A stretch of DNA of 64,000 nt from Chloroflexota bacterium (lineage in GTDB: Bacteria; Chloroflexota; Dehalococcoidia; Lucifugimonadales; UBA3495): positions 24,350 through 88,349 of the forward strand of contig JAQBVF010000012.1 of NCBI GenBank assembly GCA_027623675.1, in the 5' to 3' direction. The position numbers are program-made. Shown here in pieces: positions 60,001 through 64,000 of this stretch (its first letter is position 1; each line of letters begins with the position of its first letter).

Positions 60001-63000
60001 GATATTCGGACTGCCCGGAGTGCAGCTCTACCACATGATGGACGGGCTGTACGACGAGCCTGGCATCCGTTTCATCACCGTGCGCCACGAGCAGGCCACC
60101 GCCTACATGGCCGACGGCTACGCCCGGGCTGGGGGACAGGTCGGGACCGCGCTCACGGTGCCCGGTCCCGGACTGCTGAACGCGTCGTCGGCCTTGTCCA
60201 CAGCATATTCAGCATCTTCACCGGTGCTGATGGTTACGGGCCAGATCGAGCGGGACCACATCGGCGGCGACAGCGGCATGCTCCATGAGGTCAACGACCA
60301 GATGGACGCCATCAGTCCCGTCACCAAATGGGCCCGCCGGATATTGGACCCGGCGGAAGTGCCCGCGGCGGTGCACCAGGCGTTCTATCATCTGAAGAAC
60401 GGCCGGCCCCGCCCGGTGGAGATTGAGATTCCGCCGGAGACGCTGGCTGAGGTCGGCGAAGTGGAACTTATGGAGCCGGAGGAGCCTCGCCAGGTCGTGG
60501 CCGGCAAGGAGCAGATCGAAGCGGCTGCCGATGCCCTGGCTGCAGCCGCCAACCCGCTCATCTGGGCCGGCGGCGGCGTCATCTCCTCCCAGGCTTCGGA
60601 AGCGCTGACCAAGCTGGCCGAGCACTTGCAGGCCCCGGTGGTCACCACCGCCGAGGGCAAGGGCGCCATATCCGATCACCATCCGCTGGCCCTGGGCGCG
60701 CTCTGGCTGCGGAACGACACCATCGCCAAAGAACGATTCGGTCACGACGTCATCTTCGCCGTGGGCACCAGGCTGGTCACGGCCCAATGGCTGGAGGGCC
60801 AGAGGGTTGTCCAGGTCGACATCGACGCCGAGGAACTGGGGCGCAACTACGAGAACACCCTGGGCGTCCAGGGCGACGCCAAACGGACCATGGAAGACAT
60901 CCTGACCGCACTACAGGCCAAGATGCCGGCTAAGGCCGACCGGTCCGCCCAGGTCCAGGCCCAGAGGGACCAGCGCTCCAACGACGTCATCAAGGTCGAG
61001 CCCCAAGGTGAGCTGCTGGCGGCGGTCAGGAGGGCCATGCCCGAAGATGGCATCTTGGTCTCCGGCATGACCCAACTCGGCTACTACAGCCGCGCCCATT
61101 TCCCGGTCTATGAACCGCGCACCTTCATCACTTCGTCTTATTCCGGCAACCTGGGTTACGCCTACCCAACCGCCCTGGGCGCCAAGGTTGCCCAGCCCGA
61201 CAAGGCGGTGGTGGTGCTCTCCGGCGACGGTGGTTTCTTGTTCAACTCCCAGGAGATGGCCACCGCCGTGCAGCACAACATCAACGTGGTGGTGATCGTC
61301 TTCAACGACAACGCCTACGGGAACGTGAAGCGCGACCAGATGAACCAGTTCCAGGGCCGGACCATCGGCGTGGAACTGCACAACCCCGACTTCGTTAAGC
61401 TGGCTGAGGCCTACGGGGTCAAGGGCTTCGTGGCCAACGGCCCCGCCGAGCTTGAGGCCACCCTCAGGGACGCCCTGACCCTGGACTCGCCGGTGCTGAT
61501 CGAAGTCCCGGTCGGCCCCATGCCCTCGCCGTTCTTCAGGCCGCAAACATAGGGCCGCAGATCTAATAATGAGATTGGCAGGGCCTGCTTGACACCGAAT
61601 TCAGCAGGCCCTAGCCTTCGGGACAGACTAAAGAGAACATTTCACCCTCACTCTAACTCTTCCCATTGCGAGGGGGCGTTACCAAAAAGTAATTTTGGAG
61701 AACGGTCTAAGGGTATGAACGGCGCCCCTCAAATGTCACCCTGAGTCCTTCCGCGGAAGGGCGAAGGGTCTGCCTAGTTGAAGATTGGCAGATTCTTCCT
61801 CATCCTTCTGCGGAAGGACTCGTCAGAATGACATTGTCGGGGTAATGCGCATTGAAAGGGGGAGAATCAGCCCATTCCCCCGCGAAAACTAAGTTCCCAG
61901 TCTATCTCCAGCTAAGGAAACACATGACTATAACTGAAACGACCAAGCTGATAGTCCTGGACCCCACGGCGGCGCCCCGAAAGATGGAACAGGCCATGGC
62001 TCCGAGCCTCGACGGTCTGGGTGGGCGGTCGGTGGGATTTTTGTGGAACAGCAAGCCCAACGGCGACCTGCTCTTCGAGCGGCTGGAGAAGCTGCTCCGG
62101 GAGAAATACGAGATATCGGACGTGGTCTATAAGCGCAAGCCGACGGCGTCCATCCCGGCCACCGACGCAGTGATCGACGAACTGGCCGGGTCGGTCCAGG
62201 CGGTGGTCGTCGGGCTGGCCGATTGAGGGTCCTGCACGTCGTGGAGTATCCACGACGCGGTTGAACTGGAGAAGCGGGGCGTCCGCGCGGTAGTGGTGGG
62301 CACCGACCGTTTCAAGCGGCTGGGCGACGTTGAGCGGCGTTCCCTGGGCATGCCCGAACTGACCATGGCCACCGCCGAGCATCCGCTGGGCGGGCTGAAG
62401 GCCGACCAACTCCTAGCCAAGGCCGACGGGTTGTTGGAGCAGGTGGTCAAGGGCTTAACCGGAGGCCGCTAGGCGGATCTTCCCCGGTGTGCAGATTCTG
62501 GTATGCAAGCTAATATGAGTCATCCCGGGCAGCACGCTACCGAGCAGATGCCGTCATCTCGGCGAAAGTCGAAATGACGGTCGGGCAGAGCAACCACACT
62601 CGCTACCTGTCATTCTGACCCTTCCGCAGAAGGAGAAGAATCTCTTCGCTTACCTTCAAGGTTGCTATCGTTCCGCGGACCGGCAGTTGGCCTCCCTTCG
62701 GCAACGAAATTCCTCTCTTAGCTCGGAATGACCAAGGCGGCCGGAATGATAAAGCTTGCGGCATCCACCCAGCAAACTCCGGGATGACTCATGTTTATAT
62801 TTTCCCGTAGCTGGAGGGCACATTGGCCGACCTAGTATCAGAACGATTGGAAGTTAACGACGATTTCGAAGCGGTCCAAAACCTCTACCTAGATCGGGGT
62901 TGGACCGACGGCCTGCCCATCGTTCCGCCCACCGCTGAGCGGGTCGAGGCGATGCTGGCGGCCACGCCCCTGAACCCCCAGGACATCATCGGCGAGATAC

Positions 63001-64000
63001 CGCCCAACTGGGGTTCGGCCACGGTGGAGAAGCTGGCAGTGAACGCCGTGATGGCCGGCTGCCGCCCCGAATACCTGCCGGTGGTCATTGCCGCGGTGGC
63101 GGCCATGTGTGATGAGGCCTTCAATCTCTATGCCATCCAGGCCACCACCCACCCCTGCGCGCCGCTGATCATCGTGAACGGACCCATCTGCGACGACCTG
63201 GGCCTGCACGGCGGCTCGGGCGCTTACGGGCCAGGCTGGCAGGCCAACGCCACCATCGGGAGGGCGGTCAGGCTGGTTCAGTTAAACGTGGGCGGAGCGC
63301 ATCCGGGCGTGGGCGACATGTCCACCCAGGGCGCTCCTTCCAAGTACACCTACTGCGTGGCCGAGAACGAGGAGGCCAACCCCTGGCAGCCCCTGCACAT
63401 CGAGCGAGGTTTCCAGGCCGATCAGAGCACGGTGACCGTGTTGGCCGGGGAGCCGCCCCACAACATCAACGACCACGCGGGCAGCAGCGCCGAGGACATC
63501 CTGACCATCATCGCCGGCGCCATCTCCATCACCGGGGCCAACAACGCCTACACCGGCGGCGAGACCCTGCTCGCGTTGGGACCGGAGCACGCCGCCACCA
63601 TCGCCAACGACGGCCTGGGCAAGCAGGAGATAAGGGAGTGGCTGCACCGGAACGCCCGCATCCCCCTGGAGCGGTACACCCACGAGACCATGATGGAGCG
63701 GTTCCAGAAGATCCCCGACGGCCCGGTGCCCATGGTGGTCGACCCGGACCTGCTCACGATCATCGTACTGGGTGGCCCCGGCAAGCACTCGTCATGGGTG
63801 CCCACCTTCGGCGGGAGTACCCACTCGGTAACCAGGGAGATACGGCGCGTTGGCCAGTGACCGGTCCGGCGATCCTACTTGGGTCCGGCGTCAACCGAAT
63901 ATTCCTAGGACTCTATCGCCGCCCGCATCAGGTTGAATTTCCTTTTTGAATTTTGGTGAATATGCATGCGGCCCCAATCGGGGCCGCATGCATCGCTAAC

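What a model noticed while it worked through the whole genome (the two positions that open the first line are those of the whole stretch)
61924..63860. Nine-fold UGSC selenoprotein / 'Unknown_1' partner gene pairs: a two-part redox enzyme family
Nine paralogous ~350-aa proteins with no Pfam/NCBIfam/Swiss-Prot match (g00745, g00840, g01125, g01268, g01292, g01592, g01919, g01965 and the C-terminal 370 aa of g02683) sit next to, or are fused to, UGSC-family selenoprotein genes (each UGSC gene is split by the caller at an in-frame TGA in a U-G-S/G-C motif). I read the pair as a two-component selenoenzyme: a flavodoxin-fold UGSC redox carrier that delivers electrons via its U-x-x-C centre to a catalytic partner whose fold is distantly like the Fe-S hydro-lyases (class I fumarate hydratase / CyuA) and which keeps two invariant Cys. 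New would be a function and fold for one of the most abundant orphan selenoprotein families of the ocean an [...]
Evidence so far: BLASTP in the proteome: the nine partners match each other at 30-70% id, E 1e-28 to 1e-180. 7 of 9 lie within 0-2 genes of one of the 8 UGSC genes, 1 is fused (C46:13465-15189, TGA read-through gives 575 aa), 1 (g01592) stands alone. hmmscan Pfam E<=10: 0 families; PDB phmmer: nothing meaningful. The family is large: 5940 50%-identity clusters at E<=1e-3; of 9 longer relatives scanned, 5 are fusions with UGSC at either end and 1 with a thioredoxin-reductase-like Pyr_redox_2 domain. Alignment: invariant GWTDGLPVVPPT, NAVMAGC(80), C178-x-AENEE. AF2: partner pLDDT 84/pTM 0.88, Cys-form fusion P0137 pLDDT 88/pTM 0.89. 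Foldseek: partner nearest class I fumarate hydratase (7xky_A E 8e-5 over 313 c [...]
(Added by a program. Inside this text positions count along the whole contig: contig position 24,350 is position 1 of the stretch shown here. "Call 12" and the like, gene names such as g00115 and contig names such as C1 are that model's own, and its searches are not shown. The text may have been shortened before it was handed on; [...] marks where a part breaks off. The agent that wrote the report below was given it as the finding of a first reader that could run no searches.)

Follow-up and report, generated by a model that had tools for sequence, protein, structure and literature searches.

The report
UGSC selenoprotein and its partner enzyme
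A small selenium-containing protein of unknown function sits beside a 345-residue protein of an uncatalogued family, and the two very probably form one redox enzyme, which gives a concrete way to test what this abundant orphan selenoprotein does.

Summary
Window 61924-62475 encodes a UGSC-family selenoprotein with an in-frame TGA (U101, motif D-U-G-S-C) and a SECIS-like hairpin. Window 62823-63860 encodes a 345-aa protein with no Pfam, NCBIfam or PDB relative. The genome has 8 UGSC and 9 partner genes, plus tRNA-Sec, SelA and SelB.

In 80 partner loci from many phyla, 69 carry UGSC on the same strand, in either order or fused. Relatives of the partner are also fused to Redoxin (CxxC), ferredoxin-thioredoxin-reductase and thioredoxin-reductase-like domains. 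A thioredoxin-reductase-like gene lies directly upstream of UGSC in 6 loci. Folding the two domains of a natural fusion as separate chains supports binding (0.79, best control 0.00). It puts the UxxC helix against the partner's NAVMAGC helix.

I read the pair as a selenol/thiol redoxin feeding a Cys-based reductase of unsolved fold. The substrate is unknown, possibly a carboxylate.

The fusion has been in print since 2008, and I read its figure: 'Unknown_1' is this family. This scan noted the same pair seven times before on other DNA.

The parts
61924..62475 (+). UGSC-family selenoprotein gene, 182 codons plus stop. AAGGAA lies 6 nt before the ATG.
   Evidence: Translation with TGA=U. PF24696 E 3.8e-49. 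NF041046 133.3 bits, cut-off 125. AF2 model pLDDT 94.7, five beta/alpha units.
62224..62226 (+). In-frame TGA read as selenocysteine U101 in the motif A-D-U-G-S-C. It sits at the start of helix 102-117.
   Evidence: The genome holds tRNA-Sec, SelA and SelB.
62240..62254 (+). SECIS-like hairpin, 16 nt after the U of UGA: a 6-bp consensus stem, extended to 9 bp in this copy.
   Evidence: The hairpin sits in the same register in 8 of 8 UGSC genes of the genome. Two of 6 consensus pairs show compensatory changes (GC/CG 4:4; UA to GU in 1). This copy folds at -26.5 kcal/mol over 60 nt, z -2.8.
62512..62795 (.). Dispersed repeat of about 280 bp, MITE-like, with 17-nt terminal inverted repeats. It fills most of the 347-nt spacer between the two genes.
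   Evidence: Inverted repeat I4 at 62512-62528 / 62779-62795, 94% complementary. There are 22 further copies of at least 190 nt at 76-89% identity on 14 contigs. No Rfam match.
62823..63860 (+). Partner gene ('Unknown_1' family), 345 codons plus stop, TTG start after GGAGG. An alternative start lies at codon 9.
   Evidence: No Pfam, NCBIfam or PDB sequence relative. AF2 pLDDT 96.4, pTM 0.94. Most conserved residues: D29, G30, P32, G79, G120, N142, G146, R147, E181, W188. C80 is 95% and C178 88% conserved.
14975..16018 (+). Second partner paralogue in the window (347 aa), 44% identical to the first.
16028..16627 (+). Second UGSC selenoprotein gene in the window (TGA at 16379-16381), 9 nt after the partner's stop. 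A luciferase-like monooxygenase lies upstream (13604-14764) and an NHL-repeat gene downstream (16676-17560).

Best explanation
The two genes encode the two subunits of one redox enzyme.

UGSC is a dedicated selenol/thiol redoxin with a flavodoxin-like alpha/beta fold. Its Sec101-Gly-Ser-Cys104 centre sits at the N-terminus of a helix.

It docks with its N-terminal arm (the L-x-P-T motif) and its redox helix on the face of the partner formed by the GWTDGLPxxPPT and NAVMAGC motifs.

It cycles between selenol/thiol and selenosulfide. In doing so it passes reducing equivalents to the partner's Cys80, with Cys178 as a frequent second thiol.

Cys80 lies beside a nearly invariant polar set (D29, N142, R147, E181) that would hold and reduce a small substrate. 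That substrate is possibly a carboxylate brought in by TTT/TRAP-type transporters.

Oxidised UGSC is re-reduced by a thioredoxin-reductase-like flavoprotein with NAD(P)H where one is encoded next to it, and otherwise by general cellular reductants.

The eight or nine old paralogous pairs in this genome would serve different substrates.

Status of each step:
- Shown: the genes, the Sec-decoding signals, family-wide adjacency and fusion, and swapping of the redox module.
- Predicted by models: the folds and the interface.
- Inferred: the direction of electron flow, the role of Cys80, and the substrate class.
For: 1. It is a real selenoprotein. It has an in-frame TGA in the family's motif and a SECIS-like hairpin in 8 of 8 paralogues with compensatory changes, and the genome holds tRNA-Sec, SelA and SelB.

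2. Linkage.
- In 80 partner loci from genome contigs (Binatia, Dehalococcoidia, Beta-/Alpha-/Gammaproteobacteria, Acidimicrobiales, Methylomirabilota, Acidobacteriota, Bacillaceae, Streptomyces, Nitrosocosmicus, Methanobacterium and others), 69 hold UGSC, always on the same strand.
- Of 69 full UGSC domains, 63 lie within 234 nt of a partner. The order is UGSC-first in 43 and partner-first in 26.
- In a sample of 151 genomes of the phylum, 13 of 13 genomes with UGSC have the partner. Outside this genome, 12 of 15 UGSC matches are adjacent or fused. These counts include the unpublished genome G038, which gives 2 of the 15.

3. Fusion.
- Of the 70 proteins of at least 400 aa among the 150 best 50%-identity representatives, 50 carry a UGSC match in Pfam: 17 full, 29 N-terminal post-TGA fragments and 4 C-terminal pre-TGA fragments.
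- Six more do so with a local HMM.

4. Module swapping. Other relatives carry, in UGSC's place, Redoxin/AhpC-TSA domains with CxxC (P0241, P0248), the ferredoxin-thioredoxin-reductase catalytic chain (P0203) or a thioredoxin-reductase-like Pyr_redox_2 domain with CAVC (P0133).

5. A thioredoxin-reductase-like gene lies 10-115 nt upstream on the same strand in 6 of 80 loci.

6. Predicted interface.
- The two domains of the natural Cys-form fusion P0271 were folded as separate chains. The score was ipSAE 0.79 (median of 3 runs) against a best control of 0.00.
- The tool's mark was reached by 51 of 78 solved complexes and 2 of 108 mismatched pairs. The runs share at least 80% of their contacts, and the partner chain's pLDDT is 86-87.
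- The contacts include S100, S103, W104 and H107 around C98-G-S-C101, and N264, A266 and M267 just before Cys270 of M-A-G-C.
- No like complex is solved.

7. U101 and C80 both sit at helix N-termini.

8. The eight pairs of this genome show correlated divergence: r 0.56, reached by 637 of 40320 label permutations.

9. Context points to carboxylate and acyl-CoA catabolism.
- TctC receptors occur in 10 of 80 loci, CoA-transferase III in 6, enoyl-CoA hydratase in 6 and MmgE/PrpD in 3.
- One Robertmurraya operon reads PrpR-ECH-MmgE/PrpD-UGSC-partner-DctM-DUF6282-F420_oxidored-Ldh_2-thioesterase.
Against: - Cys80 is replaced (A, L, I, G, V) in 8 of 159 domains, two of them in Sec-type fusions (P0125, P0188). 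Cys178 is replaced in 17 and gapped in 2 of 160.
- Of 17 full-length UGSC-partner fusions, 4 have lost both U/C and the second Cys of the motif (P0144, P0167, P0180, P0258). Two more keep only the first (P0142, P0262). All six keep the partner's Cys.
- 11 of 80 partner loci show no UGSC in the fetched flank, and 3 of 16 partner-bearing genomes of the phylum sample show none.
- No neighbour family is present in more than 10 of 80 loci, so no substrate is indicated.
- The complex was predicted on a distant fusion (32% identity to the window's UGSC), without alignments, and that fusion lacks Cys178. Neither the Cys/Sec positions themselves nor Cys270 are in the list of confident contacts.
- No coordinates could be read, so no U-to-Cys distance was measured.
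Confidence: 0.5

Rival explanations
1. Stickland-type chemistry. The selenocysteine itself is the catalytic nucleophile. The partner only binds and activates the substrate. Sec101 attacks a carbon of the bound substrate, Cys104 resolves the Se-C adduct to a selenosulfide, and this is then reduced, as proposed for the selenoprotein B subunits of glycine and D-proline reductase.
For: - The UxxC motif is shared with PrdB (Table 2 of PMC2398784, passages read).
- The enzyme has two subunits, with a Sec protein tightly bound to a larger non-Sec subunit.
- The partner's Cys80 is dispensable in 8 of 159 domains, while D29, R147 and E181 are nearly invariant.
- Contexts point to carboxylate catabolism.
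- The mechanism of GrdB/PrdB is recalled from my own knowledge; I read no paper on it here.
Against: - UGSC gives no Pfam hit to GRDB (PF07355) at E<=10 in 7 of 7 stand-alone paralogues scanned. The partner gives none to any glycine-reductase family in 69 members.
- Relatives in which a plain CxxC Redoxin or a ferredoxin-thioredoxin-reductase domain replaces UGSC fit a generic reductant better than a specialised catalytic selenol.
- Four of 17 fusions have lost the motif altogether.
Confidence: 0.2
2. The partner is a non-redox enzyme, for example a cofactor-free isomerase, racemase, lyase or hydrolase that uses Cys80/Cys178 as nucleophile or acid/base. UGSC is a bound guardian or regulatory subunit that keeps these thiols reduced or switches the enzyme with the redox state of the cell.
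For: - Two frequently conserved Cys sit beside an invariant Glu, Arg and Asp.
- Some fusions keep the UGSC domain without its redox motif, so the domain has a role beyond electron transfer.
- 11 of 80 loci have the partner without UGSC.
- Contexts are rich in isomerase/dehydratase-type carboxylate enzymes.
Against: - The costly Sec is kept in 61 of 69 adjacent UGSC genes.
- Dedicated thioredoxin-reductase-like genes are present or fused, which suggests stoichiometric electron flow rather than occasional repair.
Confidence: 0.17
3. A metal or iron-sulfur site is built across the interface from Sec101 and Cys104 of UGSC and Cys80 and Cys178 of the partner. This covers the first reader's idea of an Fe-S hydro-lyase-like catalytic subunit. 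Catalysis happens at that metal.
For: - Four ligands are available at or near the predicted interface.
- One UGSC paralogue gives a weak hit to the CGGC domain (E 0.028, below cut-off).
- One relative's C-terminal CxxC tail gives a weak NifU hit (E 0.0085, below cut-off).
- Foldseek's first rows are class I fumarate hydratases.
- Sec as a metal ligand is known from [NiFeSe] hydrogenase and formate dehydrogenase (own knowledge).
Against: - The fold matches are at noise level: TMq 0.27, rmsd 16 A, VIA Z 3.2-4.0.
- None of the four ligands is invariant, and 4 of 17 fusions lack both UGSC ligands while keeping the partner's Cys.
- Replacement of UGSC by Redoxin, thioredoxin-reductase and ferredoxin-thioredoxin-reductase modules fits disulfide exchange, not a shared metal site.
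Confidence: 0.1

Closest known systems
UGSC/Unknown_1 fusion of Zhang and Gladyshev (PLoS Genet 2008, PMC2398784; text passages and Figure S1A read)
   Same: It is the same two families. Figure S1A aligns the block A-V-N-x-V-M-A-G-C-R-P-E-Y ... V-N-G-P, which is the partner's residues 72-121. The highlighted Cys is Cys80. UGSC is the same U-G-S-C selenoprotein.
   Different: [quoted passage not shown] It guesses a Trx-like fold for UGSC and gives no function.
- Here the two are split genes, present 8-9 times in one genome.
- The link holds in 69 of 80 loci across many phyla.
- The UGSC model is flavodoxin-like.
- Other redox modules can take UGSC's place.
Thioredoxin-reductase / thioredoxin / thiol-dependent reductase chains, such as thioredoxin-recycled methionine sulfoxide reductases, PAPS reductase and ArsC (own knowledge)
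   Same: - A small redoxin has an X-x-x-C centre at a helix N-terminus.
- It is encoded beside, or fused to, a Cys-bearing enzyme.
- A Pyr_redox_2 flavoprotein lies upstream or is fused.
- The redoxin module is interchangeable with Redoxin-family CxxC domains.
   Different: - UGSC is not a thioredoxin-fold protein in the model. It has five beta/alpha units, and no thioredoxin appears among the listed matches.
- It uses Sec in 61 of 69 cases.
- It binds its target through a long N-terminal arm.
- The target belongs to no known family or solved fold.
Selenoprotein B subunits of glycine and D-proline reductase (GrdB/PrdB with GrdE/PrdA)
   Same: A UxxC selenoprotein works with a larger substrate-binding subunit on small carboxylates and is re-reduced through a thioredoxin-type system.
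   Different: - No sequence likeness at E<=10 on either side.
- No sign of a pyruvoyl-forming cleavage site was tested or seen.
- The hosts are mostly aerobes of ocean, soil and groundwater.
Class I fumarate hydratase and CyuA (Fe-S hydro-lyases)
   Same: These are the first rows of the Foldseek list. They share an alpha/beta arrangement over about 200 residues.
   Different: - TMq 0.26-0.30, rmsd about 16 A, Z 3.2-4.0.
- No three-Cys cluster site.
- No profile match.

Membership tests
UGSC family (Pfam PF24696, NCBIfam NF041046) | Profile match over the curated cut-off | tested here: met
   PF24696 scores 167.6 bits (cut-off 25). NF041046 scores 133.3 bits (cut-off 125). All 8 genomic copies are over the Pfam cut-off.
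UGSC family (Pfam PF24696, NCBIfam NF041046) | U/C-G-S/G-C motif with the first position encoded by in-frame TGA | tested here: met
   A-D-U-G-S-C with TGA at 62224-62226. The motif is present in 8 of 8 paralogues.
UGSC family (Pfam PF24696, NCBIfam NF041046) | Sec decoding is possible: a SECIS-like hairpin after the UGA and Sec machinery in the genome | tested here: met
   The hairpin sits in the same register in 8 of 8 genes, with 2 covarying pairs. The genome holds tRNA-Sec, SelA and SelB. Incorporation itself was not measured.
'Unknown_1' domain (Zhang and Gladyshev 2008, Figure S1A) | The aligned block A-x-N-x-V-M-A-G-C-x-P-x-Y-x-P ... V-N-G-P with the highlighted Cys | tested here: met
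   Figure S1A was read as text. The window protein has AVNAVMAGCRPEYLPVV ... IIVNGP at residues 72-121.
'Unknown_1' domain (Zhang and Gladyshev 2008, Figure S1A) | Found fused to, or with, UGSC | tested here: met
   It is adjacent here. One paralogue on C46 is fused. 69 of 80 loci elsewhere carry UGSC.
Class I fumarate hydratase / Fe-S hydro-lyases | Profile match to the Fumerase or related families | tested here: not met
   0 of 69 family members hit such a family at E<=10. The PDB profile search gave nothing below E 0.36.
Class I fumarate hydratase / Fe-S hydro-lyases | Three conserved Cys that bind a [4Fe-4S] cluster | tested here: not met
   Only two Cys are conserved, in 151 of 159 and 141 of 160 domains. 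No third conserved Cys appears in 162 domains.
Class I fumarate hydratase / Fe-S hydro-lyases | Shared fold | tested here: inconclusive
   Foldseek gives E 9e-4, TMq 0.27, rmsd 16.4 A. VIA gives Z 4.0 over 203 residues at 6.3 A (6mso_A) and Z 3.2 (7xky_A). Both are below the top unrelated hit at Z 5.6.
Thioredoxin-fold redoxins (for UGSC) | Thioredoxin fold | tested here: inconclusive
   The model has five beta/alpha units. The listed matches are flavodoxin-like, CheY-like and periplasmic-binding-protein half-domains at Z 9-11. No thioredoxin is listed, but a family that is not listed is not excluded.
Thioredoxin-fold redoxins (for UGSC) | X-x-x-C redox centre at the N-terminus of a helix | tested here: met
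   U101-G-S-C104 directly precedes and enters helix 102-117 after strand 93-99.
Glycine/proline reductase selenoprotein B (GRDB, PF07355) | Profile match | tested here: not met
   7 of 7 stand-alone UGSC paralogues give no GRDB hit at E<=10.
Glycine/proline reductase selenoprotein B (GRDB, PF07355) | Partner subunit with a self-cleaving pyruvoyl precursor | not testable with these tools
   No profile match of the partner to any family. Cleavage would need protein chemistry.

The most novel reading that the evidence does not exclude
UGSC plus partner is a new class of selenium-dependent reductase with an unsolved fold, spread through aerobic ocean, soil and groundwater bacteria and some archaea. 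The partner binds a small carboxylate, and the selenol either attacks it directly or reduces a catalytic Cys. This would be an aerobic-world counterpart of the Stickland glycine and proline reductases, fed by its own thioredoxin-reductase-like flavoprotein. Its eight- to nine-fold expansion in this Chloroflexota genome would reflect a battery of substrate-specific reductases for dissolved organic acids.
Probability: 0.3. Interest if true: 0.85.

Novelty: new variant of a known kind. Interest (0 to 1): 0.6.

Why it matters
UGSC is listed among the most abundant selenoprotein families of ocean metagenomes. It was still called uncharacterised in a May 2026 review (PMC13188914, passages read).

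Tying it to one partner enzyme, with a predicted interface and a likely upstream reductase, turns 'function unknown' into defined experiments:
- Co-purification of the two proteins.
- Trapping of a mixed selenosulfide.
- NADPH-driven reduction.
- Substrate screens guided by the carboxylate-catabolic operons, one of them in a cultured Bacillaceae strain.

The partner family is large (5940 clusters at 50% identity), is in no domain library, and has no solved relative. A structure would therefore probably add a fold or a new active-site type.

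Tried and rejected
- **Fe-S hydro-lyase fold.** Foldseek against the PDB and VIA-align over 48,161 chains gave only noise-level matches. I rejected it as a basis for function.
- **PDB sequence searches.** Neither the partner profile nor UGSC gave anything below E 0.3.
- **UGSC 'longer' search for other fusion partners.** It returned only 1 protein, P0271, another UGSC-partner fusion, so it is weak evidence either way.
- **Conserved third gene.** Clustering 626 neighbour ORFs of 80 loci found no family in more than 10 loci. The ThDP enzyme and VOC gene upstream of this pair are local neighbours. ThDP enzymes occur in 3 of 80 loci, and near a second pair of this genome as a split ThDP enzyme.
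- **Expression.** No RNA holder was listed for the stretch. There were 8 DNA holders from 4 studies, 2 of them possible sources. I did not lay reads.
- **Rfam on 61500-64000.** It gave only sub-threshold chance matches (mir-6302 at 29.5 bits against a gathering score of 90).
- **Complex of the window's own pair.** The window's UGSC cannot be given under genetic code 11. The complex was therefore predicted only for the two domains of the natural fusion P0271.
- **ESM Atlas.** It gave only the family's own clusters. Their automatic names, 'thiol-disulfide oxidoreductase' and 'thioredoxin family protein', come with no common Pfam family. I treat this as a lead only.

Full report
**What is at the coordinates**

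Window 61924-62475 (+) reads as one 182-codon gene if the TGA at 62224-62226 is taken as selenocysteine. The product has the motif A-D-U-G-S-C. It matches Pfam PF24696 (UGSC, E 3.8e-49) and NCBIfam NF041046 (133.3 bits, cut-off 125).

After a 347-nt spacer comes a 345-codon ORF at 62823-63860 (+), with a TTG start 5 nt behind GGAGG. This ORF has no Pfam or NCBIfam match at E<=1. Scanning 69 family members one by one at E<=10 gave 12 families, each hit by only one member, so no recurrent remote family appears. A profile search of all PDB sequences gave nothing below E 0.36.

Close homologues are 'hypothetical proteins' of Chloroflexota. The assembly is 3.07 Mb in 48 contigs, 91% complete with 5.7% contamination.

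**Is it a real selenoprotein gene?**

- The genome has a tRNA-Sec, SelA (E 5e-136) and a SelB with its winged-helix domain.
- All eight UGSC genes of the genome have exactly one in-frame TGA at the motif position.
- All eight have a hairpin in the same register, 16 nt after the U of UGA. In the consensus six-pair stem, two pairs change on both sides while staying paired (GC/CG 4:4; UA to GU once).
- Read-through was not measured. No RNA run holds the stretch.

**The paralogous set**

tblastn and HMM searches give 8 UGSC and 9 partner loci, and all partner frames are open. A second pair lies in this window: partner 14975-16018 and UGSC 16028-16627.

Gaps between the two genes of each pair:

| Pair | Gap |
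|---|---|
| Second pair in this window | 9 nt |
| Three pairs | about 71, 145 and 173 nt |
| This pair | 347 nt |
| C13 | 705 nt, with a DUF1326 gene between |
| C20 | about 1020 nt, with HicB, HicA and DUF433 ORFs between |
| C46 | fused |
| C26 | partner alone |

The 347-nt spacer of the pair in hand is mostly a repeat of about 280 bp. It has 17-nt terminal inverted repeats (62512-62528 / 62779-62795). The genome holds 22 further copies of at least 190 nt. The wide spacing here is therefore an insertion, not an original feature.

Partner paralogues are 29-44% identical. The exception is the lone C26 copy, which is 70% identical to the partner on C20. Divergence of the eight UGSC proteins correlates with that of their partners (r 0.56; 637 of 40320 label permutations reach it). 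This fits pairs that were duplicated or acquired as units.

**How general is the link?**

The 80 best loci span many groups:
- Binatia, Dehalococcoidia, Beta-, Alpha- and Gammaproteobacteria
- Acidimicrobiales, Methylomirabilota/Rokubacteria, Acidobacteriota, Poribacteria
- a Robertmurraya (Bacillaceae), Sphingomonas, Streptomyces
- the archaea Nitrosocosmicus and Methanobacterium

Results of a six-frame HMM search that reads TGA through:
- 69 of the 80 loci hold UGSC, always on the partner's strand.
- Of 69 full UGSC domains, 63 lie within 234 nt of a partner and 6 lie at 612-978 nt.
- UGSC comes first in 43 and the partner first in 26.
- The motif's first position is TGA in 61 and Cys in 3 (Sphingomonas and two Methanobacterium). 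No motif was found in 5.
- The 11 loci without UGSC include five Poribacteria-type loci with a shortened partner and two in which the partner lies near a contig end.

In an even sample of 151 genomes of the phylum, UGSC was found in 13 and the partner in 16. All 13 with UGSC have the partner. Outside this genome, 12 of 15 UGSC matches are adjacent or fused, one is 5.2 kb away, one is unpaired and one sits at a contig edge. These counts include the unpublished genome G038, which gives two of the 15 matches. Other genomes of the sample have 1-3 copies of either gene, so the eight- to nine-fold set here is unusual among those searched.

**Fusions and what replaces UGSC**

The partner family has 5940, 4031 and 1574 clusters at 50% identity at E<=1e-3, 1e-10 and 1e-30. 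I scanned only the 70 proteins of at least 400 aa among the 150 best representatives. The other 80 were not scanned for extra domains.

| Class among the 70 long representatives | Count | Source |
|---|---|---|
| Complete or nearly complete N-terminal UGSC domain | 17 | |
| Begin inside UGSC just after the Sec position (gene calls that start behind the TGA) | 29 | |
| End inside UGSC just before the Sec position (partner-first fusions cut at the TGA) | 4 | |
| Thioredoxin-reductase-like Pyr_redox_2 domain with C-A-V-C (P0133) | 1 | |
| Ferredoxin-thioredoxin-reductase catalytic chain (P0203) | 1 | |
| Redoxin/AhpC-TSA domain with CxxC (P0241, P0248) | 2 | |
| No Pfam family | 16 | |

Among the 16 without a Pfam family:
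- Six match the C-terminal part of a local UGSC HMM at their N-terminus.
- Three are tandem duplications of the partner (P0161, P0178, P0235).
- Three carry a C-terminal tail of about 90 aa with a CxxC. One of these gives a NifU hit below cut-off (E 0.0085).

At least 56 of the 150 best representatives are therefore UGSC fusions. Sec-type fusions are largely hidden by gene callers.

Four different disulfide-reducing modules occupy UGSC's place or join the partner. This is my main reason to read UGSC as a reductant for the partner.

In keeping with this, a Pyr_redox_2 gene of about 315 aa lies 10-115 nt upstream of UGSC on the same strand in 6 of 80 loci. It lies within 5 kb in a seventh.

**Structure**

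- **Partner.** With a 69-row alignment, the partner folds with pLDDT 96.4 and pTM 0.94. Foldseek's best PDB rows are class I fumarate hydratases (E 9e-4, TMq 0.27, rmsd 16 A), then 'Toblerone-fold' cyclic amide hydrolases.
- **Wider fold search.** An aligner run over 48,161 chains independently of Foldseek gives a best Z of 5.6 (a chorismate mutase, 91 residues). Fumarate hydratases score Z 4.0 and 3.2, and CyuA scores 3.6. All are below the level the tool describes as common for unrelated folds. I conclude only that the central sheet is a common beta/alpha sandwich and that no solved relative is detectable.
- **UGSC.** With 25 rows, UGSC folds with pLDDT 94.7 into five beta/alpha units, with U101 at the start of helix 102-117. 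Its matches are generic flavodoxin-, CheY- and binding-protein-like sandwiches (Foldseek E about 1e-4, TM 0.4-0.5; Z 9-11).

**Conservation**

Figures come from 162 partner domains.
- Nearly invariant residues include D29, G30, P32, G79, G120, N142, G146, R147, E181 (159 of 160) and W188.
- Cys80 (N-A-V-M-A-G-C, at the start of helix 82-95) is present in 151 of 159. Cys178 (C-x-A-E-N-E-E) is present in 141 of 160.
- Two of the proteins that lack Cys80 are Sec-type fusions (P0125, P0188).
- Among the 17 full-length fusions, 11 have C-G-x-C with both Cys. Two keep only the first Cys, and four have lost both while keeping the partner's Cys.

Neither thiol is therefore indispensable across the family, and the UGSC domain can persist without its redox centre. 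This is the main evidence against a simple obligatory relay.

**Predicted interface**

The window's UGSC cannot be sent under genetic code 11. I therefore used the natural Cys-form fusion P0271 (563 aa, 32% identical to the window's UGSC), cut into residues 1-180 and 196-563.

- The score was ipSAE 0.79 (median of three runs: 0.78, 0.79, 0.79), against 0.00 for the best of three controls.
- The tool's mark was reached by 51 of 78 solved complexes and 2 of 108 mismatched pairs.
- The runs agree in at least 80% of contacts, and the partner chain's pLDDT is 86-87.
- No like complex is solved, so the pass is unlikely to come from memory. It remains a model's confidence, not a measurement.

The confident contacts, mapped to the window's proteins:
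- **UGSC side:** the N-terminal arm (window residues 9-21, with the invariant P14), S103, S106, W107 and H110 around U101-G-S-C104, and residues 136-142.
- **Partner side:** W27, the P-P-T motif (35-37), residues 61-70, N74, V76 and M77 just before Cys80, and residues 151-166.

The Sec/Cys positions themselves are not in the confident list. I had no coordinates to measure a distance.

**Context and substrate**

No third gene is conserved. Among 626 neighbour ORFs within 5 kb in the 80 loci, no family is present in more than 10 loci.

| Neighbour family | Loci of 80 |
|---|---|
| TctC/Bug carboxylate receptors | 10 |
| Luciferase-like monooxygenases | 9 |
| Pyr_redox_2 | 7 |
| SDR | 6 |
| Enoyl-CoA hydratase | 6 |
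| CoA-transferase III | 6 |
| NHL-repeat proteins | 6 |
| MmgE/PrpD | 3 |
| ThDP enzymes | 3 |

In a Robertmurraya chromosome the pair sits inside a same-strand run: PrpR-type activator, enoyl-CoA hydratase, MmgE/PrpD, UGSC, partner, DctM, DUF6282, an NAD(P)-binding reductase, Ldh_2 and a thioesterase.

In this genome the neighbours are equally mixed:
- VOC and ThDP enzymes before this pair.
- A luciferase-like monooxygenase and an NHL-repeat gene around the second pair. That arrangement recurs in four other Dehalococcoidia loci.

I take this as a weak pointer to small organic acids as substrates, with different paralogues serving different pathways.

**Reading**

The best-supported account is a two-subunit enzyme in which UGSC is a bound selenol/thiol redoxin that reduces the partner (confidence 0.5). 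The rivals are:
- A Stickland-like mechanism with Sec as the nucleophile on a partner-bound substrate (0.2).
- A non-redox enzyme guarded or switched by UGSC (0.17).

**What is known**

- The 2008 ocean-metagenome paper names the UGSC/Unknown_1 fusion.
- Reviews of 2022 and May 2026 list UGSC as a selenoprotein without known function (passages read).
- Two full-text searches for UGSC, NF041046, PF24696, 'UGSC family' and 'UGSC-containing' found 9 and 8 papers. By the listings and passages I read, none describes the partner linkage, a structure or a function. Subscription journals are not covered by that library.
- This scan has noted the same pair seven times on other DNA. Those notes agree with what I found. 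I did not rely on them, and I re-derived the linkage on my own set of loci.

Noticed in passing
window 62512-62795: A dispersed repeat of about 280 bp with 17-nt terminal inverted repeats sits between the two genes. The genome has 22 further copies of at least 190 nt (76-89% identity) on 14 contigs. It has no Rfam match and looks like a MITE.
   Followed up: partly
window 61743-61821: A long, near-perfect hairpin (18-nt arms, 94% complementary, built on the palindrome CCTTCCGCGGAAGG) lies between the ThDP-enzyme gene and UGSC. Related copies occur on other contigs and once in the spacer. Its only Rfam hit is a sub-threshold microRNA model, which I take as chance.
   Followed up: partly
L012:11796-12650 (-), = G000 C20:61796-62650: A further selenoprotein gene, split by an in-frame TGA. 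It is deiodinase-like (PF00837, E 8.8e-35 when read through) with the motif S-Y-T-U-P-P-F. It lies about 2 kb from the UGSC gene of the C20 pair.
   Followed up: partly
L009:7894-8502 (-), = G000 C13:59894-60502: A DUF1326 gene (E 1e-39) with a Cys-rich N-terminus (C-N-C-x-x-G-C-P-C) lies on the same strand between the partner and UGSC of the C13 pair. It may be a third component in that paralogue only.
   Followed up: no
L012:8361-9163 (-), = G000 C20:58361-59163: HicB-like, HicA-like and DUF433 small ORFs are inserted between UGSC and the partner of one C20 pair. This explains the gap of about 1 kb.
   Followed up: partly
window 13604-17560: The second pair of the window is framed by a luciferase-like monooxygenase upstream and an NHL-repeat propeller downstream. 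The partner-UGSC-NHL order recurs in four other Dehalococcoidia loci (L071, L080, L084, L094), three of which (L071, L080, L084) also have a luciferase-like monooxygenase within 5 kb.
   Followed up: partly
P0161, P0178, P0235; loci L037, L040, L047, L065, L067, L095: Some relatives are tandem duplications of the partner in one chain; two of the three have lost Cys178 in both halves. Several alphaproteobacterial loci carry a second partner copy, shorter in five of the six, right after the first. In four of them a thioredoxin-reductase-like gene comes first.
   Followed up: no
G000 C26:103059-104141: The lone partner copy is 70% identical to the partner of the C20:82459-83514 pair. It is a recent duplication of the partner without UGSC, next to a UvrD helicase and a dodecin gene.
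   Followed up: no
window 59419-61552: A VOC/glyoxalase gene and a three-domain ThDP enzyme lie on the same strand just upstream of UGSC. A split ThDP enzyme also lies near the C20 pair.
   Followed up: partly
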